From Verrucomicrobiota bacterium (GTDB lineage: Bacteria; Verrucomicrobiota; Verrucomicrobiia; Limisphaerales; CANJXF01): a stretch of DNA of 35,382 nucleotides. Shown here one piece after another: positions 22,156 through 32,050 of the stretch. Position 1 is the first letter of the stretch; each line of letters begins with the position of its first letter. The stretch covers positions 1 to 35,382 of the forward strand of contig JBBQRQ010000052.1 in NCBI GenBank assembly GCA_038214755.1, read 5' to 3'. The notes under the pieces are model-generated. The model made no database searches and was not told the DNA's origin. It saw nothing but the letters and a program-made list of their open reading frames with translations. The translations under genes and the position numbers were made by a program.

Positions 22156-22210
22156 AACATCACGCCAGATTTCGCGCCGTCTTCGGTGTGGAGATATTCG
22201 TCCTCGGTCA
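22156..22210. repeat. Degenerate direct repeat of 30229-30283 (putative island boundary)
   Basis: Ungapped match at 49/55 to the 3' region of gene 30123-31394. Confidence 0.85.
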
Positions 22211-22725: not shown

Positions 22726-23856
22726 TCAATAGAACGGCCATGCTTTTTTAGGCGGCCCCATCGCTTCTTGTTCAAATGGAACTTTATCTTTCTCCATGTG
22801 CAACGGACGAAAATCGCGCCGAGATTTTTCTTGGAGATCACGCAGGATATCGAACCCGGCTGCATCGTTATCTCCGAAATGCCAGAACTCAAGCGCGGCC
22901 GGCAATCGATGCAAGAGCGCGAGCGTGCCGGAACCTGGATAACTTGTCTGAATCAAAAGTTCGCCTGAAAGTAATTTGGCTAATTCGTGAAATGAAGTTT
23001 CATTTTCCACAGTCAAGCAACGGCGGGCGCTGGTCGCTATTTCTCCGGCGCGTTGGATGTCGGTTAGCGCGAGGCGATATGAACCGTGAAAACGCCCGAA
23101 ATCAATCCAGTCACCGTCGAGCCGAAGGCGCAATGGGCCATGGACGAGAACCGAGCGTGGATTGGCGACGATGCCGAGATCATCCAACGCGCGAATTTCA
23201 CCATTCGTAATTTTTTCCAAAATGCGACCGAGTTTGCCGCGCAATTGTCCGGCGAATTCACCTTCGCGTTCCACCGCGGCTAATTCTTCGAGCCGTTTTG
23301 ATCTGTCGCACTCGCACAGAACGCAACTGGCGAAGCGCACCATTGACTCTCCTTCCCACCGCAAAAGCTTGGGAAGCAAGGCGAGTAATTCCGCATTGGC
23401 CGCAGTGGGTTCGCGATCAAATGGTTCAACGGAATGGCCCGCGAGAGATGCCTGCCGTTGTCGTTCGCACCAATTTTGCCAACCTTCTTTCCAGCGCGGC
23501 GGGACTTCAAATGAAGCAGCGGACAAAAATTGTTGGGCTAAAGATTCTCGAACTCCTTGAGGCGAAAGTCGCTCAAGCAACGCGTAAAGTTCGGCTTCTT
23601 TGCCCAACAGAAGTCTAACTTTGGCGATGCTCGTTGGATCGCGCGGATGAACCGGAATAAGTTCCAGAAGTTTTCCATCCAACTCGCGAAGTTGACGCAA
23701 GGCCAATTCATAACTTTCTCCTTCCACACAATTGGCTTCTTCGGTCAGTTCCGTCAGCGGCACAATGATATCGCGAGTTCCCGTTCCGGTGCGTCCAGCC
23801 CGGCTTTGTTCGTAACGGCGAGCCAACGCTTCGAGAATGGGCGACGGCACTTTCAT
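22726..23856 (-). CDS. jetD: Wadjet JetD toprim nuclease
   Basis: LTVENETSF, HFGDNDAAGFDI (DxD) and EQE motifs. Last gene of a four-gene SMC operon. Confidence 0.88.
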   Translation of the reverse strand: MKVPSPILEALARRYEQSRAGRTGTGTRDIIVPLTELTEEANCVEGESYELALRQLRELDGKLLELIPVHPRDPTSIAKVRLLLGKEAELYALLERLSPQGVRESLAQQFLSAASFEVPPRWKEGWQNWCERQRQASLAGHSVEPFDREPTAANAELLALLPKLLRWEGESMVRFASCVLCECDRSKRLEELAAVEREGEFAGQLRGKLGRILEKITNGEIRALDDLGIVANPRSVLVHGPLRLRLDGDWIDFGRFHGSYRLALTDIQRAGEIATSARRCLTVENETSFHELAKLLSGELLIQTSYPGSGTLALLHRLPAALEFWHFGDNDAAGFDILRDLQEKSRRDFRPLHMEKDKVPFEQEAMGPPKKAWPFY

Positions 23857-23857
23857 T

Positions 23858-26800
23858 TTACTTGTCCATCAAGCGGCGTGCATCGTCCGAATCACGCGCC
23901 AAACTTACAGGAATGTTGCGAATCTCCGTTCGCTTGCCGGTGTGTCGCTCTTCTTTCGAGACGACGACCAGCCAATCGCAATGTTCAAAGGCGTAAGGGA
24001 TGTTGCCGGTGCTCATTGAGAAAACGCCTTGCAGATCGAACGCCTTTAGCGCGGTGATGCAATCTTTGATGCGCTCACCGCTGAGTTTGGAAAAAGCTTC
24101 GTCAATTGGAACCAATCCCAACGACGGCTCTTGTTTGCGGGAACCGTAACGACGGTAGGCGCGCAAATAACTCGCCAGAATCGCGATGAAATAGGGCGAT
24201 TGATTTTCGCCCCCGCTGAATTTTCCCGAGTGCCGATCCACGCTTGTCTTGCGTCCATTCTCGTCTTCGACCTCCATGTCGTATTCGTAGTAATTGCGAT
24301 AATCGAGCAACCGCGCAGCTTCGACGCTGTTCGGTTGTTCCGTAAGCGTTTTTAAAAAAAGTTCAATGGCGGTGCGAAAGCGCGGGTCGGCAGAGGCGAA
24401 CCATAATTCATCTGAGTGCGCCAGCATGTTTGCCTCAACCAATTCATGCCAGATTTTGAATTCAGGATTCTGCCGATAACTAATCTGGTAACGGTCGTTG
24501 CCGATGGGACGTTTTCTTAATTCCTGATTGAGGATGAAAAGCACATTGCGCACGTCGCTCAAAGCGCCGCTCAATTTGTCGAGAACCTGATTACGGAAAA
24601 GTCCTTCCCAATGTTTTCGTTCGCGCTCGGCTTTGGTTTTGTATTCGGGAATTTCGCTTTGCTCCAATTTGATGAGTTGCTTTTCGTGGCTGTCGTTGGA
24701 TTCAGATTCAACTGGCAGATCGTCAAACTTTGAATGAGTTAAAGCTAATTCGCGGCGTTTTGATTTTAATTCTTCCCACGCCGCAGCGGCTTTCTCCCGA
24801 CAATCATGGAAAAGTCCATTGAATTTGTCCGCCGCCACATCTTTGGCGGGAAACTCCGTCAGCATTTTAGCATGAAGTTCTTCCAGGCGTTTTAACCATG
24901 GCGAAATATCGTCGCTACGAATCTGATCAAATTTGTCAGCAAATTCCTGTGCCACTTTTCGCTGGCAAAGCACTGCCGAGTTCAGGCTTTGTACGTGCTG
25001 GCGTTTTGGACTTTGCAACAGGCCGCGTTGTTCGTTCACCCATGCGGCCAAATCCGTTTCCAGTTTTGTTTGCTGGTTGGCCAATTCGTCAAACTTCGCG
25101 CGGTCAATCGAATTGAGTTTCGCAATGTTCTCCTTCAACTCAGCTTGATGTTTGGGAAGCTCCTGCGCGCGGGCGAGGTCGGAATAAAGAGTGGGCGAAA
25201 GATCGAAATATTCGCGCCAACCCTCGTTCAAAGTTTTTATCGCCTTTTCAATTGGCGCGAGACGACGCTCTTCAATTTCCAGTTCGTCGCGTTGCTTTTC
25301 TTTCCAGGCAAGTTGTTGGCGCAAACCTTCTTTGCCCACGAACGGATCGCCATCGTAAAAACGGGGACGTTCGACGAATGCGCCCCGCGCCATAAAACCA
25401 TCCGGCAATATGGCGAAGTCGTGCTCACGCAATTGCTCGCGACGTTCCACGCAAATCACACCGCCGAAAAGATGGCTGACAATGGCTTCGGCAATGGGAT
25501 GACTGGTTTTGATTTTTTCCGCCAGCGAACCGGAGCGAATCTCTCTTTTGGTTTTTAGAGCTTTCGTCGGGTTGATTAACGATTCACGCCCGACTTCGCT
25601 GCCCAACTCAGATGCTTTGAGATTGTGATAAATTTTTTCCGCTGGTTCGTAATCTTCCGGCGAAACAACGACGGCAAATTTCCGCGTGAAAGCAATTTCA
25701 ATGGCGGGTCGCCAACGCTCGTCCAGCACTTCGCACAGTTTACAAAGCGATTGCGCGGGCAACTCTGTTTTGCCTGAAAGCAGACTGCTGTTCAGCGCAT
25801 CGAGCAAACGGGTGGGAAACGGCAGCTTGCCCATTTTGAGCGAGCCGATTTCATCGCGCAATTGTCCTAACTGCTGACGAATTTCTCCAACGCGTTTTTG
25901 TGTGCTGCGTGCCGCGCCGCTCGCTTCCTCTGTTGCGCGATGTGCGAAAGTTTTGAGAGCATTCAGTGTTTCACCGGCGTTTGAAATGTCACCCGCTTCA
26001 ACATCATGAATGGCTCGCTCGACCGTGTTGGCTGGAGCCGCGTCAAATTCGAGCGGGAGCGCGCGCAGTTGTTTCAGCCAGGAGCGCGCGTTGCGAACGC
26101 GATTGGTCAGAGCTTGCTCAAGCGTGTTGCCGATTTCTGTGAGTTGGCTGATTTGCCGGGTGAGTTCGACGTTGCGGCTTTTGATGAAACTATAGAGTTG
26201 GCCTTCGGGCGTCTGATTGATGAGCGCGGCGATTTGTTGTGTTTCCGTTCGACCGCGTTCGATAAGTTCATCGAGTTTTAGTAACCGCTTTTCTTCAACC
26301 GCATATTCTTCACGGAGTTTCGACAATTTTATTTCGTCGGCAGCCAGTTGTTCCGCCGCGTGTTCGTGGCGAAGTTGCGCTTCAAGATAACGAGCCAACG
26401 CGCGGTCACGGCGAAGTTCGGTCAGCCGCGTAAATATTTCGCGAATGATTTTTAATTTTTCAAACTGATCGTTGAGTTCCGTCAGGTCACGCTCGTAACC
26501 CAGAAACGTGCGGTAACTGGAAGTGACGTCGGACACATCCAATTTGTCATCGGGCAAAATGAAATGACGGCAAAACTCGTTGAATCTTTTTAAAAAAGTG
26601 AACGACATCGCGGTAGGCAAGAGCGAGCGGAGAATGTTGCGGTCAAAATTCAGATGCGCCGGTTGAGCCATGTCGCGCAAATACGCATCGATCCCTTCGG
26701 TGAACAGTCGGCCGCTGTGCGCTTCGATAAATGCTTTGAAAGCGGTGGAGTCGAGAGGACGTTTTTCTGCGTCGAGAAAATCGCTGCGCTCCGTTTTTGT

Positions 26801-27205
26801 TGGAATAAAAAACGGCGTCACTTTTCCCTGCGTCTCAGCCGTGCTGTGAAATTCGATGCGCAAACCCCACGTCTCCGCTTTCCTTCCACTCGGCCAGGTA
26901 AATTCCAGCGCGACGTAAGTGATGGCGCTTTGTCGCATGAATTGCGCGACGCCATTTTCTTCCTGTTTGGTGTCGCCCAAACAATAGCCTTTGAGCGAAC
27001 GATCCGAACGATCACCGGTCGCCGATTGATTGAAACGCACGAGACGCTGATCGCCCACGAGCACAAGTTGAATCAAGTCCATCAAAATGGATTTGCCGGA
27101 GCCGGTCACGCCCGCGAGCAGTAGATTGCCTTCGACCGGAATGCTGTCCTTGTAGCCATACCAATTGAGGGCGTGAATACGACTGAGACGAATGGTGCGG
27201 CTCAC
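23858..27205 (-). CDS. jetC: Wadjet JetC SMC-like ATPase
   Basis: Walker A GVTGSGKS, long coiled coils with a central hinge-like region, signature FSGGENQ and Walker B IDEAFSKL. Confidence 0.92.
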   Translation of the reverse strand: MSRTIRLSRIHALNWYGYKDSIPVEGNLLLAGVTGSGKSILMDLIQLVLVGDQRLVRFNQSATGDRSDRSLKGYCLGDTKQEENGVAQFMRQSAITYVALEFTWPSGRKAETWGLRIEFHSTAETQGKVTPFFIPTKTERSDFLDAEKRPLDSTAFKAFIEAHSGRLFTEGIDAYLRDMAQPAHLNFDRNILRSLLPTAMSFTFLKRFNEFCRHFILPDDKLDVSDVTSSYRTFLGYERDLTELNDQFEKLKIIREIFTRLTELRRDRALARYLEAQLRHEHAAEQLAADEIKLSKLREEYAVEEKRLLKLDELIERGRTETQQIAALINQTPEGQLYSFIKSRNVELTRQISQLTEIGNTLEQALTNRVRNARSWLKQLRALPLEFDAAPANTVERAIHDVEAGDISNAGETLNALKTFAHRATEEASGAARSTQKRVGEIRQQLGQLRDEIGSLKMGKLPFPTRLLDALNSSLLSGKTELPAQSLCKLCEVLDERWRPAIEIAFTRKFAVVVSPEDYEPAEKIYHNLKASELGSEVGRESLINPTKALKTKREIRSGSLAEKIKTSHPIAEAIVSHLFGGVICVERREQLREHDFAILPDGFMARGAFVERPRFYDGDPFVGKEGLRQQLAWKEKQRDELEIEERRLAPIEKAIKTLNEGWREYFDLSPTLYSDLARAQELPKHQAELKENIAKLNSIDRAKFDELANQQTKLETDLAAWVNEQRGLLQSPKRQHVQSLNSAVLCQRKVAQEFADKFDQIRSDDISPWLKRLEELHAKMLTEFPAKDVAADKFNGLFHDCREKAAAAWEELKSKRRELALTHSKFDDLPVESESNDSHEKQLIKLEQSEIPEYKTKAERERKHWEGLFRNQVLDKLSGALSDVRNVLFILNQELRKRPIGNDRYQISYRQNPEFKIWHELVEANMLAHSDELWFASADPRFRTAIELFLKTLTEQPNSVEAARLLDYRNYYEYDMEVEDENGRKTSVDRHSGKFSGGENQSPYFIAILASYLRAYRRYGSRKQEPSLGLVPIDEAFSKLSGERIKDCITALKAFDLQGVFSMSTGNIPYAFEHCDWLVVVSKEERHTGKRTEIRNIPVSLARDSDDARRLMDK

Positions 27206-27882
27206 GTTTGCTCCTCCGCATCATTGTCGTCGCCGGCTGCTGATTCGACGCTTTCGGTTGCGTCCGCAATTTCTTTCACAGAAGCCAAATAGCGCTCCGC
27301 ATTTTGATTCCATTCCTCAATGTTCTGAAACGGGATAACGCGCTTGAGCGTGGAAAAAACTTCGATGATGGACCGTTCAAAAGTTGCATCGGGCGCAAAG
27401 CGAACCAGATTTTTGCGTTGGGCGAGTGAGAGAATTTCACGCAGCCGCGAGGGACTCGGAAGATGTTTGCGCAGCGGTTCAAACTTGGCGGTGAGGGCGT
27501 CGTTGAGTTGCTGAACGGTCAATCGCACCGGGGGCGTTTCGCCACGATCTCGCACGGCGGTGTCAAATTCATACCAGAGCGTGAGCAGAACAATCGTGGC
27601 ATCGAGTTTAAGTTTGAGAGTGAACGCGCCACTTTGCGGAACGGCTTGAACGATGCGGTCTTGATGATCCCAATGGAGTTTGAGGTCAAGGAGCGCCGCA
27701 AATTCGTCCACCCACTCGCGATTTTGATAGCACCAATGATAGAGGTCGGATTGCGCGGGTTGAAGACCAAGAATGGAACCGTTGGCCAGCAAACGGCGTA
27801 AAGCTTCACTGAGTCGCTCGCGATCGTGCTCGGGAAGGCGCGCGAGAAGGCCGGTGGTGTTGATGGGTTCTGTGTTCGTCAT
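27202..27882 (-). CDS. jetB: Wadjet JetB (DUF4194-like KITE subunit)
   Basis: Size and position between jetA and jetC, with LKLDATIVLLTLWYEFD. Overlapping start and stop codons on both sides. Confidence 0.8.
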   Translation of the reverse strand: MTNTEPINTTGLLARLPEHDRERLSEALRRLLANGSILGLQPAQSDLYHWCYQNREWVDEFAALLDLKLHWDHQDRIVQAVPQSGAFTLKLKLDATIVLLTLWYEFDTAVRDRGETPPVRLTVQQLNDALTAKFEPLRKHLPSPSRLREILSLAQRKNLVRFAPDATFERSIIEVFSTLKRVIPFQNIEEWNQNAERYLASVKEIADATESVESAAGDDNDAEEQT

Positions 27883-29327
27883 CACTTTTTCACCAGAGTA
27901 AATCGCTCGATGCGGTAGCCAAGCTTGGCGTCAAATTCTCCGGCGTCGGCTTCGTCAACGGTACGCGGCACATCAACTCGAAATTTCGCGTCGGTCGAAC
28001 GAGCATGCAACAAACACGCAATCAAATCAGCCACATCTTCGTCGTTGTGAATATATTCCCCAACCAGATCAGTGGAGTTCAGACGCGCCCCGCGTTCGCC
28101 GGGCAGTGCAGCTACGAAACGATTGGCACGATTGACCGTCAGCGAATCGCGCATCGTTCCTCCCAATTCAGCCAACGCGCGATCCTGCTGGCGCTGATCG
28201 GAATCTTCCAGCGGTTCAATCTCCCCGCCAACTCGCCGCAAGTGCGGTGTGTAAAGCGATTCCATTCCGCCGATGAGTTTAGCGTCGTGCAATAAAAGCA
28301 CCGGGAAATCAATATTCAATTCATCCAAAGCGGTGAGTCGTTGACCGGCGAAATGTTGATTGAGCGTTTCGAAAAATGTTTGAATGCGTCCGCGATTTTC
28401 ACTGGTCGTTTCTTGCAGATAACGAAAACGCGCTTGGGAACGGCGGGCGAATTCGGCGGTGCGACGATCAATCACATCGGCGAGCGGCTCAACCTGTTCG
28501 AGTAATTCAGCGAGTTCATCCAGACGCAATCGCACTCGCGCCATCGCTGCTTCCGGCGAAAGCGTTGGTTCGCGTCGCATGACCTCAGTCTGCATTTTGG
28601 TTTGAAGATCGGCTTGAGCGAGTTGATCGTTCACCGTTCGTTTCGCTTCGGCCAAACGCGACGGCAATCGCGCATGAACCAGTTGCGCGTAACAGGTGCG
28701 TCCAATTCGTTCGGCGAATTGGTCGAACATCACGGAAAGATTTTCTTTTAACGTTCCAGCGGCAAGCTGCTGCCGCGTATAACGCTCAATGGACTTTTGC
28801 ATTCCGCGCAGTTCAGTAAGACCGGCTTGCAACGTGTCAACGCAACTTTCCACCTGCTCCCACGGCTCCCTGACGAGGGCATCGTGATTGGCGAGCGTCG
28901 TGCAAACATTGACGACCTTGTCTGAAAATATTGCGGCATCAGGAAACGCAATTTTGCGCAATGCCTGCATGACAACGATTCCGTTTGGATCGAAGAAAAC
29001 GATTTTTTGATAATCCGAACGGGCGTCGTCTTCCGCCAGCCAGCCAGCTTGTTTTAAGTAGTCGAAAACCGCGCGGGCTTTGTCTCGAATAGTAGCGGCC
29101 TGTTGCAGTGCTTCATTTTCCGCATCGACTAATCCTCCATGCGCTTCCACCACTTGTTCAATCAAAGCCAAAGCTTCCTCGCGCTCCAAGCCATGATTGC
29201 GTCGAGCCGCTTCGCGTTCCAACGCATCGAGCGTATCCACATAAAGCCGCGCCAATGATCCCGACAACACGCGGAAAAAATCAGGGCGAACTTCGCGGAA
29301 TAATGAGGAAGCTAAGGAGGAACTCAT
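27882..29327 (-). CDS. jetA: Wadjet JetA (DUF5716-like kleisin)
   Basis: LFREVRPDFFRVLSG...LY and L.QAGWL..D winged-helix-like N-terminus. About 480 aa, first gene of the jet operon. Confidence 0.82.
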   Translation of the reverse strand: MSSSLASSLFREVRPDFFRVLSGSLARLYVDTLDALEREAARRNHGLEREEALALIEQVVEAHGGLVDAENEALQQAATIRDKARAVFDYLKQAGWLAEDDARSDYQKIVFFDPNGIVVMQALRKIAFPDAAIFSDKVVNVCTTLANHDALVREPWEQVESCVDTLQAGLTELRGMQKSIERYTRQQLAAGTLKENLSVMFDQFAERIGRTCYAQLVHARLPSRLAEAKRTVNDQLAQADLQTKMQTEVMRREPTLSPEAAMARVRLRLDELAELLEQVEPLADVIDRRTAEFARRSQARFRYLQETTSENRGRIQTFFETLNQHFAGQRLTALDELNIDFPVLLLHDAKLIGGMESLYTPHLRRVGGEIEPLEDSDQRQQDRALAELGGTMRDSLTVNRANRFVAALPGERGARLNSTDLVGEYIHNDEDVADLIACLLHARSTDAKFRVDVPRTVDEADAGEFDAKLGYRIERFTLVKK

Positions 29328-29423
29328 TTCATGCAGACGCGCGTATGCGAACAAAGCGTTTCTTAAAATTTATTCTTCCAATAGGCTGCCATTCGGATTC
29401 ATTTCTGTTTTGTTTCATTCCGC

Positions 29424-29981
29424 TCACTTGCCTTTTGATTTGTCAGCGCGAAACCCAATCAGCCGACGGCCTTCGGGATACGCCCAGCTTGAAGTTTCGT
29501 CGAGTTGGCGCAACGCGGCTAAGATCATCTGGATGTCTTCGCCGTGCAGTTGTTGGTTGCATTCCAGTTCGGCAAGTTTGCGAGCGAGTTCCGCGTAGCG
29601 ACCCGATTCCCGCCGCAACGTCACGAACGCGCGGATGACATGAATGCTCATCTCCACCGCGCGCCGACTGCTGAGAACATTTGCCGCCATGATCGCGCCG
29701 TGCTCGGTGATGGCGTAGGGAAGATATTTCCGGTGCTGGCCGCGTCCGGCGTTTAAGGTCGCAAATTGCGACCTTAAAGAATCGACTTCGTCGGACGTGA
29801 GTTGAAACACAAAGTCATCTGGAAAGCGCTTGGCGTTGCGGCGCACTTGTTCATTCAGTCGTTTCGTCGTCACACCGTAAACGCGCGCGAGGTCAACATC
29901 CAGCATCACGCGTTCTCCTCGTATCTCACGAATCAGCGGCTCGACTGGCTCAACTACCAAAACACTTTTCTTTTTCGCCAT
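29424..29981 (-). CDS. ORF6N domain DNA-binding protein
   Basis: IRGERVMLDVDLARVYGVTTKRLNEQVRRN..RFP.DF.FQLT..E...LRSQFATL....G..R..PYA.TEHG..MAA.VL.S..A. Confidence 0.92.
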   Translation of the reverse strand: MAKKKSVLVVEPVEPLIREIRGERVMLDVDLARVYGVTTKRLNEQVRRNAKRFPDDFVFQLTSDEVDSLRSQFATLNAGRGQHRKYLPYAITEHGAIMAANVLSSRRAVEMSIHVIRAFVTLRRESGRYAELARKLAELECNQQLHGEDIQMILAALRQLDETSSWAYPEGRRLIGFRADKSKGK

Positions 29982-29988
29982 AAAGTTT

Positions 29989-30115
29989 TTTGAAATGCCA
30001 AATTGGCATTTCAAAGTATGCGGTCGCAAATTGCGACCGCTTCCCGTTTCTGTTCAAGGTCGCATTTTGCGACCTTGAACAACGCGCTCTTGATATCGCA
30101 ATTTGCGATATCAAG
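29989..30115. repeat. Array of four related palindromes upstream of the ORF6N gene
   Basis: Palindromes at 29989-30015, 30020-30040, 30051-30081 and 30089-30115, with perfect arms of 13, 10, 14 and 13 bp. All are related to the in-gene palindrome at 29752-29778. Confidence 0.92.
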
Positions 30116-30122
30116 TTGCACC

Positions 30123-31394
30123 TCAGAATTTATTCTTCCGATACGCACCCATCTTCGGCGCGGCGGGATTCACTTCGGGGCCGAAGTAACGCAGGACGAC
30201 GAGCGGTTCGGTTTCGCTCGTGTTCTCAAACGTCACGCCGGATTTCGCGCCGTCTTCGGTGCAGAAATATTCGTCCTCAGTCAGTTCGGTGAAGCGGATG
30301 AGTTTCGGGGAGTTGAGCGGCAGGCCGTTGATCTGGCCGATGCCTTGCACGCAGATGAGACCGTAAGCGCCGTTGTCTTTGATGTTACATTTCACTCCGG
30401 GATCGACGGTCAATTCTTTCGCGGTGAAAAGTTGTTCGCCATCGACTTTGCCGTAAACGATCCAGCGATCGATGAACCCTTCCTCGCGGGTGTCGGCGAC
30501 GGGCACGGGTTCGAGGTAATGATTTTCTTTAAATTTCGGGTCAACGTTTTTTTCCCAGTCGAGTTGCTCCACGATGAAATCCAAATCGCGATGTTTATTC
30601 TTCGGCATGTCTTTGACGAGGAGAGACCATGGAACTTCGCGGCCTTCGACTAGGTTTTGATACATGCCAAAAACGTCGCTGCCCCATTGCGGCTCGTAGG
30701 TGCAGAGCGAACCAGGCGCGTGAAGAATGCAGGGACCAATCAGCCATCCCGAACCGACTTTCAAACGATATGCTTTCGATAGATCAAGGATGCCGTTGTC
30801 GCCTTTGTTCCAATTTTCCAAACATTGGCGGACTTGCGCTTTGGTCGTGCCAGGCTCAAAGCCCATGAACGTGTAAGGAAAATTATTTCCAACGTTGTTG
30901 TGCTGAGGCGGAAAATAATAGGACTCGGGTTTGCCTTCCTGTCCGACAAGTTTGGCCTGCTTCTGCGACTGGTGCATGTGATGGGGAATCGGTCCCATGT
31001 TGTCGAAAAATTTGGAATAGACCGGCCACTTTTTATATTTTTTCCAAATGGAGTTGCCGATGATCGTCGCGCCGCAATCGGCCACGGCTTGTTGAAGTGT
31101 GAAACGTGAACCGCGAACGACCACGTAGCTCAAGCCTTCATCGGGCGTGCGATTTTCATTGGCGGCGGGCGTGGTGGAAGCGAACCAACGTTCGTCGATA
31201 CCACCGCGATTCAACCCGTAGGCATAGGTGTCGTCGGGGTGAAGTTTAAGTCGCAAGCCAGGTTGCAGAAACGAGCGGGGAACCCAGCAGGGCGCCAGGC
31301 GAAGCAATCCTCCCGTCTCGGAAATTTCTCCTTCGACGAGGCTTTTGACGTTTTTGGAAACGGTCTTGAGTTGGGTGATCGTATTGAGGCTCAT
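30123..31394 (-). CDS. Conserved cupin protein, phosphomannose-isomerase type I-like
   Basis: KFFD...PIPHHMH, GKPESYYF and ILHAPG metal-binding-like motifs. Confidence 0.7.
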   Translation of the reverse strand: MSLNTITQLKTVSKNVKSLVEGEISETGGLLRLAPCWVPRSFLQPGLRLKLHPDDTYAYGLNRGGIDERWFASTTPAANENRTPDEGLSYVVVRGSRFTLQQAVADCGATIIGNSIWKKYKKWPVYSKFFDNMGPIPHHMHQSQKQAKLVGQEGKPESYYFPPQHNNVGNNFPYTFMGFEPGTTKAQVRQCLENWNKGDNGILDLSKAYRLKVGSGWLIGPCILHAPGSLCTYEPQWGSDVFGMYQNLVEGREVPWSLLVKDMPKNKHRDLDFIVEQLDWEKNVDPKFKENHYLEPVPVADTREEGFIDRWIVYGKVDGEQLFTAKELTVDPGVKCNIKDNGAYGLICVQGIGQINGLPLNSPKLIRFTELTEDEYFCTEDGAKSGVTFENTSETEPLVVLRYFGPEVNPAAPKMGAYRKNKF

Positions 31395-31481: not shown

Positions 31482-31721
31482 TTATGCTGCCAGAGGGCGA
31501 ACGCTAAGAATTTCGTCGGCGCGCAAAGGCTCCAGCGAGGATTCCGGCACGCATGTCACCGCGATGGTTTCTCCGAGTGCGTTAAAAACTTCAATCGCGT
31601 ATCCTTTCGTCCCATCTGGAGCCTTAACATGGTCCACCAGAGTGACAACATCACCTCGGCGCAAACCATTTCCCGGCACGTCCTCGGTGAGTGCAACTTT
31701 CGTATAAAGTTCAAATTTCAT
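31482..31721 (-). CDS. DUF4926 domain protein
   Basis: VALTEDVP..GLRRGDVVTLVD...GYAIEVFNALGETIAV. Confidence 0.85.
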   Translation of the reverse strand: MKFELYTKVALTEDVPGNGLRRGDVVTLVDHVKAPDGTKGYAIEVFNALGETIAVTCVPESSLEPLRADEILSVRPLAA

Positions 31722-32050
31722 TGCCGTGTTTTGTTCGGGTACAGCGTGACAAACCGCGCCTTGTCTGACAAGGAATCCCTAAGCCAAACCGACCGAACTC
31801 GCAAGATGACGCCGCTCGGTCCTCGCAGATTCGCGTCCACTATGAAGATTTTACCAAATCGACTGGTTTGAATTTCTGTCACCCGTTGCGATAACACTTG
31901 CTCTCGAATCTCGCGTTCCACCAATTCCGGGTTTGCCATTGTGTAGCCAGCGCTGAAGAGCCACGCCGACTTGTCGTCTTCGAGTTGGTGAACTAACAAA
32001 TAATGCGTCAACTTCCTTCGAGCAATCACCGCATCCGCTGGTAGTTTCAC
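31718..32050 (-). CDS. DUF6883-like protein
   Basis: MKLP..AVI...KLTHYLL....DKS..L...GY...N...FG...L.GPSG....VRSVW......RFVTLYP. Coupled to DUF4926. Confidence 0.75.
   Translation of the reverse strand: MKLPADAVIARRKLTHYLLVHQLEDDKSAWLFSAGYTMANPELVEREIREQVLSQRVTEIQTSRFGKIFIVDANLRGPSGVILRVRSVWLRDSLSDKARFVTLYPNKTRQ

What the first reader, a model, noticed from the sequence alone, without database searches (positions are those of the whole stretch)
29752..30115. ORF6N gene preceded by an array of alternative versions of its own palindromic coding segment
Seen: the ORF6N CDS contains a perfect 27-bp palindrome, TTTAAGGTCGCAA-A-TTGCGACCTTAAA (29752-29778), encoding LRSQFATLN. The ~140-bp intergenic region directly upstream is almost filled by four non-identical palindromes of the same design: TTTGAAATGCCAA-A-TTGGCATTTCAAA, GCGGTCGCAA-A-TTGCGACCGC, TGTTCAAGGTCGCA-TTT-TGCGACCTTGAACA and CTTGATATCGCAA-T-TTGCGATATCAAG. 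Their centres are at 30002, 30030, 30066 and 30102 (spacing 28, 36, 36). The differences are compensated on both arms, so symmetry is maintained. Each translates into a variant of the same peptide: LKCQFGISK, KRSQFATAY (MRSQIATAS on the other strand), SRSQNATLN and LISQIAISR. From memory these resemble variants seen at this position in other ORF6N proteins. Inference, two models. (a) The array is a reservoir of cassettes for swapping or inverting a specificity segment of the protein. (b) The palindromes are operators, each bound by the ORF6N variant that carries it, so the array senses several incoming ORF6N-bearing mobile elements and controls the downstream ORF6N-jetABCD genes. I know of no description of either arrangement.
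Basis: partly seen in the sequence, partly recalled or inferred. Interest (0 to 1): 0.92.

Follow-up and report, generated by a model that had tools for sequence, protein, structure and literature searches.

The report
ORF6N gene with docking-site palindrome array
A small DNA-binding gene at the head of a Wadjet anti-plasmid operon carries a symmetrical DNA site inside its own coding sequence and four related sites in front of it, which are most likely docking sites for this protein and for sister proteins, not spare gene parts.

Summary
Five perfect palindromes lie at the stated coordinates: one inside the ORF6N coding sequence and four that cover 106 of the 141 intergenic bases upstream. They are not a genome-wide repeat.

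The coding palindrome is a DNA-level feature of the whole family. 94 of 96 relatives keep at least 10 of 13 pairs at the same codon. A synonymous Ser third base pairs with its partner in 65 of 67 genes.

Four residues on one face of a predicted recognition helix (K40, R41, E44, Q45), about 90 nt away, co-vary with site base pairs 4-8, also in phylogenetically independent pairs. By this code units U2 and U3 and the coding site fit the window's own protein. U1 and U4 fit ORF6N variants found in related genomes (U4's match rests on unpublished genome G009).

Best reading: docking sites forming an auto- and cross-regulated operator array for ORF6N-jetABCD. Binding and repression are inferred, not shown. 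A BstA/aba-like self-immunity role is the main rival. The cassette-swap model is not supported, because the palindrome-encoded peptide lies in a low-confidence loop.

This scan noted the same phenomenon before on other DNA (32 notes). My literature searches found no published description.

The parts
29424..29981 (-). ORF6N gene (185 aa): winged-HTH N-terminal domain followed by a long coiled coil
   Evidence: Pfam PF10543 at E 9.7e-33. PADLOC PDC-S05 at 1.2e-47. AF2 model with mean pLDDT 83.9.
29838..29867 (-). Codons of the predicted recognition helix T39-R48. K40, R41, E44 and Q45 co-vary with site base pairs 4-8.
   Evidence: Helix H39-48 has pLDDT about 97.
29752..29778 (.). Coding-sequence palindrome (27 bp, half-site GGTCGCAA) encoding LRSQFATLN. 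It is the cognate type for the gene's own helix.
29989..30015 (.). Unit U1 (27 bp, half-site GAAATGCCAA), centre 21 nt before the ATG. It is a heterologous type and is absent from the G007 ortholog.
   Evidence: The matching CDS site and R44 helix are in G005:C157.
30020..30040 (.). Unit U2 (21 bp). Its 17-nt core is identical to the core of the coding-sequence site, so it is a cognate type.
   Evidence: (I3).
30051..30081 (.). Unit U3 (31 bp, 3-nt centre), cognate type. Its centre is flipped (AAA/TTT) in the G007 ortholog.
30089..30115 (.). Unit U4 (27 bp, half-site GATATCGCAA), heterologous at base pairs 7-8. In G007 it is replaced by a cognate-type unit through three compensated pair changes.
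   Evidence: The matching CDS site is in G009:C472, an unpublished genome.
22726..29354 (-). jetA (27882-29354), jetB (27202-27885), jetC (23858-27205) and jetD (22726-23856). They are co-oriented and start 69 nt after the ORF6N stop.
   Evidence: Pfam JetA, DUF4194 and SbcC-like hits. PADLOC JetD. No terminator-like site in 29300-30300.
22156..22210 (.). 55-bp copy, 89% identical, of part of the 3' end of the 423-aa gene (30229-30283). It marks the far end of the roughly 7.9-kb ORF6N-Wadjet island.
30123..31394 (-). Conserved 423-aa gene (no Pfam hit). The DNA after its stop codon differs among relatives.

Best explanation
The five palindromes are docking sites for dimers of ORF6N-type proteins, which combine a winged helix-turn-helix domain with a coiled coil. 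One face of helix 39-48 (K40, R41, E44, Q45 in this protein) reads base pairs 4-8 of each half-site. By that code the window's protein fits GGTCGCAA. That half-site occurs in its own coding sequence (29752-29778) and in units U2 and U3. U1 (GAAATGCCAA) and U4 (GATATCGCAA) fit other ORF6N specificities that circulate in the same bacterial family. The four units fill the intergenic region to within 8 nt of the start codon. Occupancy by the gene's own product, and by foreign or sister ORF6N proteins, would therefore set transcription or translation initiation of ORF6N and probably of the co-oriented jetABCD genes. The site inside the gene may help through looping or as a roadblock. Shown here: the palindromes, their DNA-level conservation, the residue-base co-variation, the promoter-proximal placement, and cognate variants in relatives. 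Inferred: binding, dimerisation, repression, and co-transcription with the jet genes.
For: (1) The site is a DNA-level feature of the family. 68 of 107 representatives (<80% identity) have perfect arms of 9 or more, which none of 300 within-gene synonymous shuffles reached; the null mean arm was 4-5. 94 of 96 aligned genes have at least 10 of 13 pairs at the same codon. The synonymous third base of the Ser codon is complementary to its partner in 65 of 67 genes. In L077 and L102 the same core is read in another frame. (2) There is a recognition code. Site base pairs 4-5 co-vary with residues 41, 44 and 45, and base pair 7 with residue 40 (z 24-36); other columns not encoded by the palindrome score low. 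TCG goes with R-E-Q/A in 34 of 35 genes, TCA with [A/V]-Q-A in 27 of 32, TGC with R44 in 7 of 7, and GG/CC with K40 in 54 of 56. In independent pairs on supported branches the change went the same way 5.8 of 6, 8.2 of 9 and 8 of 8 times, and never the opposite way. (3) The fold is a winged-HTH/KilA-N-like domain, with H28-35 and H39-48 forming the HTH, followed by a long coiled coil. (4) Extra units concentrate upstream: 0.65 per kb upstream, 0.22 per kb downstream and 0.053 per kb in farther flanks. 26 of 32 upstream units lie at -125 to -17. (5) The cognates of U1 and U4 exist as coding-sequence sites of ORF6N genes with the expected helices in G005:C157 and G009:C472 (G009 is unpublished). 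(6) In the G007 ortholog, all 3 changed pairs of U4 are compensated in non-coding DNA. (7) The palindromes are not genome-wide repeats.
Against: No binding, dimerisation or expression data exist. The homodimer prediction gave no verdict. No sigma-70-like promoter was found in the region, so the position of the units relative to the promoter is unknown. Most family members (102 of 125) have only the coding-sequence site and no extra unit within 400 bp upstream or 300 bp downstream, so promoter operators cannot explain the family-wide feature. The helix and the site are only about 90 nt apart. Co-inheritance through recombination blocks could therefore mimic co-evolution. One paralog in this genome (C10) breaks the code for its coding-sequence site, although its upstream unit fits. 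G000 carries U1 but no R44-type protein in a 97%-complete assembly. G007 has an R44-type protein but lacks U1 at this locus. This argues against tuning to resident paralogs. Structural matches are only middling (Z 5-7; Foldseek best E 0.49).
Confidence: 0.55

Rival explanations
1. Self-immunity or decoy sites in the manner of BstA/aba. ORF6N would be a single-gene anti-phage or anti-plasmid effector that acts on DNA. A cognate site inside its own gene would mark or protect the replicon that carries it. The upstream array would collect tags for several specificities. Regulation would be secondary.
For: The protein matches the PADLOC candidate defence family PDC-S05. One PDC-S05 representative, reported with a RhuM domain, reduced plating of T7 and T5 about 1000-fold (bioRxiv 10.1101/2024.09.26.614923, passages read). 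BstA has a KilA-N-like N-terminal domain and a cognate DNA element overlapping its own gene (PMC8585504, section 12 and passages). The coding-sequence site is near-universal while upstream units are not, which fits a need for unbreakable gene-site linkage. The heterologous units lack a resident cognate protein.
Against: Four of the five ORF6N genes in this genome sit in housekeeping contexts, not on phages or plasmids. The extra units cluster at -125 to -17, whereas a decoy could lie anywhere. aba is not a palindrome; it has terminal direct repeats and spans the gene start. The tested PDC-S05 protein may have a different architecture. No phenotype is known for this subfamily.
Confidence: 0.2
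2. The palindromes act as RNA. Hairpins in the 5' leader and in the coding region, or leader-to-coding pairing of identical palindromes, would control translation or mRNA stability.
For: The proximal unit ends 8 nt before the ATG here, and at similar distances in all five paralogs and in relatives. Two copies of one palindrome are mutually complementary. Compensated changes are what RNA stems show.
Against: Sense-strand G.U-compatible mismatches number 14 of 81, which is the chance share of 2 in 12. Heterologous units cannot pair with the coding-sequence site. RNA structure does not explain the co-variation with helix residues 40, 41, 44 and 45. It is not known whether the array is transcribed.
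Confidence: 0.07
3. The palindromes are structure-prone DNA with no dedicated reader. They would be kept symmetrical by hairpin template switching (quasipalindrome correction), spread as mini-insertions, and serve as recombination or insertion hot spots of a small mobile ORF6N cassette.
For: The centre of U3 is flipped (AAA/TTT) between orthologs while its arms are unchanged. U1 is a clean 31-bp indel bounded by a 5-nt direct repeat. U4 was replaced by three compensated pair changes. ORF6N genes lie inside atp and sdh operons or are flanked by duplicated target-gene ends.
Against: Template switching explains symmetry. It does not explain why the same half-site sequence and codon position persist across phyla, nor why helix residues track the bases. 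The units are confined to ORF6N loci.
Confidence: 0.08
4. The array would be a store of alternative cassettes that are swapped or inverted into the coding sequence to change a specificity segment of the protein.
For: The coding-sequence site of G007 shares 25 consecutive bases with unit U3 of G000, and the flanks of the coding-sequence site are hypervariable, with 9-nt and 6-nt indels. Units U4, U3 and U2 lie in one reading frame.
Against: The three differences in the 27-bp coding-sequence site equal the background divergence (12-18%) and are uncompensated. The encoded peptide lies in a coil with pLDDT about 60. The specificity-linked residues are elsewhere. The shared frame is lost in G007, where the spacing is 39 and 34. 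No recombinase or reverse transcriptase was found among the scanned ORFs. Most relatives have no array.
Confidence: 0.05
5. A centromere-like or DNA-bridging module. An HTH-coiled-coil protein would assemble on a site array to segregate, pair or condense the DNA that carries it.
For: The DNA-binding domain resembles that of pSK1 Par bound to centromere DNA (8csh, Z 6.0) and that of RacA (5i41, Z 5.1). That those proteins also combine an HTH with a coiled coil and bind repeat arrays is recalled, not checked.
Against: The Z values are middling. The genes are chromosomal and mostly have a single site. No partner ATPase is present.
Confidence: 0.05

Closest known systems
BstA abortive-infection protein and its aba element (Owen et al. 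2021, PMC8585504; outline, section 12 and passages read)
   Same: A KilA-N-like N-terminal DNA-binding domain. A DNA element that overlaps the protein's own gene. Each homolog has its own cognate element. A defence context.
   Different: aba is 63 bp spanning 29 bp upstream and the first 34 bp of the gene. It has terminal direct repeats and no palindrome is described. BstA is prophage-borne and larger. Here the site is a 27-bp palindrome in mid-gene, extra and heterologous copies sit upstream, and no defence phenotype is known.
Autoregulated HTH repressors with operator arrays and auxiliary intragenic operators, such as lac O2 inside lacZ and gal OI inside galE (recalled)
   Same: Dimeric HTH proteins on palindromic operators. 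Several adjacent sites cover a promoter region. A distant site inside a coding region could support looping.
   Different: Here the intragenic site lies in the regulator's own gene, is conserved across phyla, constrains the protein sequence, and co-varies with the recognition helix. The arrays mix sites of different specificities.
Binding sites embedded in the gene of the protein that binds them, such as lambda ori iterons inside gene O and parS inside parB (recalled)
   Same: The protein and its site are physically linked inside one gene.
   Different: Those proteins serve replication or partition of their replicon. No such role is evident here.
pSK1 Par and RacA type HTH-coiled-coil DNA organisers (PDB 8csh, 5i41; titles, biology recalled)
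   Same: A similar small HTH DNA-binding domain followed by a coiled coil. Binding to repeated sites near the gene.
   Different: Structural similarity is only middling (Z 5-6). The family is different (ORF6N/KilA-N). The context is chromosomal.
PADLOC candidate defence family PDC-S05
   Same: The window protein matches three PDC-S05 models (E 1e-47 to 3e-34).
   Different: PDC-S05 is a candidate defined by genomic context. The one tested member that I read about was described with a RhuM domain, and Pfam does not find that domain here.

Membership tests
ORF6N (Pfam PF10543) | Match to the family model above its gathering score | tested here: met
   112.8 bits against a cut-off of 27.8, E 9.7e-33, residues 17-102.
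ORF6N subfamily with a coding-sequence palindrome | Palindrome centred on codon position 1 of the residue after the conserved Gln | tested here: met
   13 of 13 pairs in the window. 93 of 96 relatives have their best centre at the same position.
PDC-S05 (PADLOC candidate defence system) | HMM match | tested here: met
   PDLC04869 at 1.2e-47 and PDLC04856 at 3.6e-47.
PDC-S05 (PADLOC candidate defence system) | Anti-phage activity | not testable with these tools
   The only evidence is one representative of the type in a preprint.
BstA/aba | Sequence membership in the BstA protein family | tested here: inconclusive
   The PADLOC scan returned only PDC-S05 models at E <= 0.01. That the library holds a BstA model is recalled, not checked. 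No BstA sequence was compared directly.
BstA/aba | Anti-element: DNA at the gene start with terminal direct repeats | tested here: not met
   Here the sites are palindromes in mid-gene and upstream.
Wadjet (JetABCD) component | Regular association of ORF6N with jet genes | tested here: not met
   None of the 130 neighbouring ORFs of other ORF6N loci is a Jet protein. Four of the five copies in this genome are not next to jet genes. The same layout is found only in the same-genus ortholog G007.
REP / genome-wide palindromic repeat family | Many dispersed copies unrelated to one gene family | tested here: not met
   Long family-type palindromes occur only at ORF6N loci. A separate GC-rich REP-like family is distinct.
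Shufflon / invertible cassette / diversity-generating system | A recombinase or reverse transcriptase nearby, and variable copies exchanged with the expressed copy | tested here: not met
   No such domain was found in the ORFs scanned between 18.4 and 35.2 kb. Exchange could not be tested with contigs.
KilA-N/APSES-like winged-HTH fold | Structural similarity of the N-terminal domain | tested here: inconclusive
   VIA-align Z 7.0 (4ye7), 6.0 (1l8r, 8csh) and 5.2 (Mbp1, 1bm8), all middling. Foldseek best E 0.49.

The most novel reading that the evidence does not exclude
ORF6N genes are self-identifying modules with a readable protein-DNA code. Four helix residues would specify base pairs 4-8 of a palindrome that every gene carries inside itself as a cognate 'self' tag, similar in principle to BstA/aba. 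Arrays such as this one would be collections of tags for several specificities. They would make a defence island, here Wadjet, immune to or responsive to ORF6N proteins brought in by other mobile elements. That would amount to a recognition network among competing genetic elements.
Probability: 0.2. Interest if true: 0.9.

Novelty: new variant of a known kind. Interest (0 to 1): 0.72.

Why it matters
If the reading holds, a widespread family found in many bacterial phyla and in viral contigs, and listed as a candidate phage-defence gene, has a DNA site embedded in its own coding sequence. That site shapes the family's most conserved peptide motif and co-evolves with a recognition helix. This gives a simple, testable recognition code: four residues against five base pairs. 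It explains a 'conserved motif' as a DNA constraint. It also suggests that a Wadjet operon can be wired to several ORF6N specificities through a mixed operator array. The family has almost no literature, so these predictions open it to direct experiment.

Tried and rejected
(1) Reads. Only assembled contigs of public runs were available. In the probable source run the contigs break at the palindromes. The few joints come from short contigs of low likeness. Nothing can be said about swaps or inversions.

(2) Homodimer prediction: no verdict (score 0.33, mark 0.42).

(3) Foldseek against PDB found no match at E <= 0.001.

(4) The promoter/terminator scan of 29300-30300 found no sites. The consensus may not suit this lineage.

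(5) The two other exact core hits in the genome (C80:10932, C168:535) are chance hits in unrelated coding DNA.

(6) A generic REP family is rejected.

(7) ORF6N as a regular Wadjet partner is rejected for the 130 neighbours examined.

(8) Gene conversion between U3 and the coding-sequence site. The 25-nt identity between the G007 coding-sequence site and G000 U3 looked suggestive. The three differences are no more than background divergence, so I do not count it as evidence.

(9) A search of this scan's notes for this genome returned nothing.

(10) A literature search for pSK1 Par did not return the structural paper, so that comparison rests on the PDB title and on recall.

Full report
OBSERVATION. 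The window is contig C52 of a 5.1-Mb, 97%-complete genome. On the minus strand lies an ORF6N gene at 29424-29981 (185 aa; Pfam PF10543, E 9.7e-33). It is followed after 69 nt by jetA, jetB, jetC and jetD. They are 29752-29778 inside the gene, then U1 29989-30015, U2 30020-30040, U3 30051-30081 and U4 30089-30115. The four upstream units cover 106 of the 141 bases between the stop of the upstream 423-aa gene and the ORF6N start codon. The centres and the spacing (28, 36, 36) are as stated. The peptide readings are correct but follow simply from the DNA similarity of the units.

NOT A GENERIC REPEAT. The 13-nt core occurs exactly six times in the genome, against none for the reversed control. 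Three copies are here, one is inside another ORF6N gene, and two are chance hits in unrelated coding DNA. I scanned the whole genome for palindromes with a CA-NNN-TG centre and found 15 with arms of 10 or more. Eleven of them lie at four ORF6N loci. A separate, abundant GC-rich REP-like family is unrelated.

ALL FIVE PARALOGS SHOW THE DESIGN. The genome has five ORF6N genes. Each has a palindrome, perfect or decayed, at the same place in its coding sequence, and one to four related palindromes just upstream of its start codon. The other four copies are not next to defence genes. One lies between atpA and atpG. One lies between two succinate-dehydrogenase-like genes. Two are flanked by duplicated ends of the neighbouring gene.

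FAMILY-WIDE DNA FEATURE. I fetched 80 loci from bacterial genomes of many phyla and 80 from viral contigs. Of 161 genes I kept 107 representatives below 80% identity. Of these, 68 have a perfect palindrome with arms of 9 or more at nt 115-250 of the gene (own genome 3 of 5, other genomes 57 of 75, viral 8 of 27). None of 300 within-gene synonymous-codon shuffles reached the observed arm in any of the 68, and the null mean arm was 4-5.

I then aligned 96 proteins: the window, the G007 ortholog and 94 representatives. Twelve representatives of odd length were left out by eye, and 11 of those have arms of 10 or more. In 93 of the 96 the best centre falls on codon position 1 of the residue after the conserved Gln, and 94 have at least 10 of 13 pairs. 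Three observations show that the DNA, not the peptide, is what is kept.
- The synonymous third base of the Ser codon is complementary to the second base of the Ala/Val codon in 65 of 67 genes.
- The centre base is A in 51 genes and T in 39, which alone makes the Ile/Phe alternation.
- In L077 and L102 the same core is read in another frame, giving VANCD in place of RSQIAT.

WHERE THE PEPTIDE SITS. An AlphaFold2 model built on the 96-row alignment has mean pLDDT 83.9. It gives two strands, helices 28-35 and 39-48 (a helix-turn-helix, pLDDT about 97), a coil from 70 to 88 (pLDDT about 60) and a long coiled coil (106-143, 149-164). The palindrome-encoded residues 69-77 lie in the low-confidence coil. 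Foldseek found nothing significant. VIA-align gave middling matches to small DNA-binding domains: Orf22 of a granulovirus (Z 7.0), Dachshund (6.0), pSK1 Par on centromere DNA (6.0), Mbp1/APSES (5.2), RacA (5.1) and MerR-type proteins (about 4). This is consistent with a KilA-N/winged-HTH fold but does not prove it.

A RECOGNITION CODE. Mutual information between site positions and protein columns singles out residues 41, 44 and 45 for base pairs 4-5, and residue 40 for base pair 7 (z 24-36). Apart from the residues that the palindrome itself encodes, other columns score low.
- TCG cores go with R41-E44-Q/A45 in 34 of 35 genes.
- TCA cores go with [A/V]41-Q44-A45 in 27 of 32.
- TTC cores go with N41-K44-A45 in 7 of 10.
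- TGC cores go with R44 in 7 of 7.
- GG/CC at base pairs 7-8 goes with K40 in 54 of 56.

I built a FastTree tree without the helix columns and the palindrome-encoded columns. In independent pairs on supported branches the change went the same way 5.8 of 6, 8.2 of 9 and 8 of 8 times, and never the opposite way (median p 0.03, 0.008, 0.008). The four residues lie on one face of a helix (i, i+1, i+4, i+5). There are two caveats. The helix and the site are only about 90 nt apart, so recombination blocks could carry both together. The shuffle z-scores also ignore relatedness.

READING THE ARRAY WITH THE CODE. The window's protein (K40 R41 E44 Q45) is predicted to read GGTCGCAA. That half-site occurs in its own coding-sequence site, in U2 (17-nt core identical to the coding-sequence site) and in U3. 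U1 (TGC core, AA at base pairs 7-8) and U4 (TCG core, TA at base pairs 7-8) are of other types. No protein of those types is among the five paralogs. Same-family genomes do have them. G005:C157 encodes an ORF6N with G40 A41 R44 A45 whose coding-sequence site has the half-site of U1. G009:C472 encodes one with M40 R41 E44 Q45 whose coding-sequence site has the half-site of U4. G009 is an unpublished genome, so the U4 statement rests on it. The U1-type unit also sits upstream of ORF6N genes with different own sites in G004:C212 and G007:C13.

Across 125 distinct genes, 23 have extra units. Of the 40 extra units, 13 match the gene's own coding-sequence site in both core and base pairs 7-8, 14 match in one of the two, and 13 match in neither. 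Mixed arrays recur, for example L096 with seven units of three types. Extra units are concentrated upstream: 0.65 per kb, against 0.22 per kb downstream and 0.053 per kb farther away. Of the 32 upstream units, 26 lie at -125 to -17.

THE ORTHOLOG. A same-genus genome, G007, has the same layout at 82% identity: the 423-aa gene, the array, ORF6N and jetA. U2 is conserved. U3 has its 3-nt centre flipped (AAA/TTT) with unchanged arms. U4 differs at three base pairs, all compensated on both arms, which turns it into a cognate-type unit. U1 is missing as a clean 31-bp indel bounded by a 5-nt direct repeat. The coding-sequence site differs at three uncompensated positions, no more than the background divergence. 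Its flanks carry 9-nt and 6-nt indels. Units are therefore kept symmetrical in non-coding DNA and turn over as whole units. I see no good evidence for exchange with the coding copy.

CONTEXT. Downstream of the 423-aa gene every relative examined carries something different. In the window, a 55-bp, 89% identical copy of part of that gene's 3' end lies beyond jetD and an aspartic-protease-like gene (22156-22210 against 30229-30283). The ORF6N-Wadjet block therefore looks like an island of about 7.9 kb. None of the 130 neighbouring ORFs at other ORF6N loci is a Jet protein. The neighbours are a mix of housekeeping genes and defence-type genes such as HsdM, HamA, SIR2, a STAND NTPase and Eco57I. 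No recombinase or reverse transcriptase was found in the ORFs I scanned.

INTERPRETATION. The best-supported reading is that the palindromes are docking sites of ORF6N dimers. The array would be a mixed operator cluster that lets the gene's own product and other ORF6N specificities set expression of ORF6N and probably of jetABCD. No terminator-like site was found between ORF6N and jetA.

The main weakness is that most relatives have only the coding-sequence site, so promoter control cannot be the family's basic function. A BstA/aba-like self-tag is the main rival. The protein matches PADLOC candidate PDC-S05. One PDC-S05 member gave about 1000-fold protection in a preprint (passages read). BstA has a KilA-N-like domain and a cognate DNA element overlapping its own gene, but that element has direct repeats and sits at the gene start (PMC8585504).

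An RNA-hairpin reading gains nothing from the mismatch spectrum: 14 of 81 mismatches are G.U-compatible, which is the chance share. Model (a), a cassette store, is not supported.

LITERATURE AND EARLIER NOTES. 'ORF6N' occurs in 12 papers of the library, and none of the 10 titles and abstract beginnings listed concerns palindromes (listing only). The terms 'KilA-N' + 'palindrom' + 'binding site' gave two unrelated papers (listing only). This scan has noted the phenomenon before on other DNA: 32 notes in at least 30 genomes. Those notes gave me the BstA lead and the idea of a helix-site relation. I tested the helix-site relation independently here.

Noticed in passing
G000:C6:7318-8971 (L009) and G000:C17:19268-20927 (L011): Single ORF6N genes with their palindromes are flanked by direct repeats of the neighbouring gene. 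About 75 bp of the 3' end of the upstream purB-like gene is repeated after the ORF6N gene on C6. About 180 bp of the 5' end of the downstream oxidoreductase is repeated before it on C17. This looks like small inserted cassettes.
   Followed up: partly
G000:C10:30070-31720 (L007); L033; L063: An ORF6N gene lies between atpA and atpG in this genome. The same kind of neighbours (ATP synthase alpha and/or gamma) appears at two other verrucomicrobial loci.
   Followed up: partly
window 22156-22210 and 30229-30283: A 55-bp, 89% identical direct repeat of part of the 423-aa gene brackets the ORF6N-jetABCD-protease block. This suggests an island of about 7.9 kb inserted at that gene's 3' end. Locus L022 shows a similar duplication around a different cassette.
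   Followed up: partly
window 30051-30081 versus L013 (G007): The 3-nt centre of unit U3 is AAA in one genome and TTT in the other, with identical arms. This is the signature of a hairpin-loop flip, not of three separate substitutions.
   Followed up: no
L077 and L102 (second gene): The conserved palindrome core is read in a different frame (EVVANCDHL in place of LRSQIATS), so the family's 'RSQ' motif is dispensable as a peptide.
   Followed up: partly
G000:C2:81428-81527: Two long palindromes (35 and 27 bp, TGTCGCACA type) lie inside another coding region on the minus strand. They encode a repeated IVAQxVRQLP-like peptide. This may be a second gene family with palindromes in its coding sequence.
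   Followed up: no
G000, genome-wide (for example C49:10960-11210): There is an abundant REP-like family, GGCAGACA-NNN-TGTCTGCC and close variants. It makes up most of the 118 short CA-NNN-TG palindromes found, and is unrelated to the ORF6N units.
   Followed up: no
G000:C80:10507-11350: An insert of about 630 bp is flanked by direct repeats of about 107 bp of the surrounding gene. This is another case of insertion with target duplication in this genome.
   Followed up: no
window 29950-30114 (-): A 54-aa frame reads U4, U3 and U2 in phase because their spacing is 36 nt. The phase is not kept in G007 (39 and 34 nt), so it is probably coincidence.
   Followed up: yes
window 31482-32050 (-): A pair of small genes, DUF4926 and DUF6883, lies upstream of the 423-aa gene. 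A DUF4926 protein also neighbours the ORF6N gene of L075.
   Followed up: no
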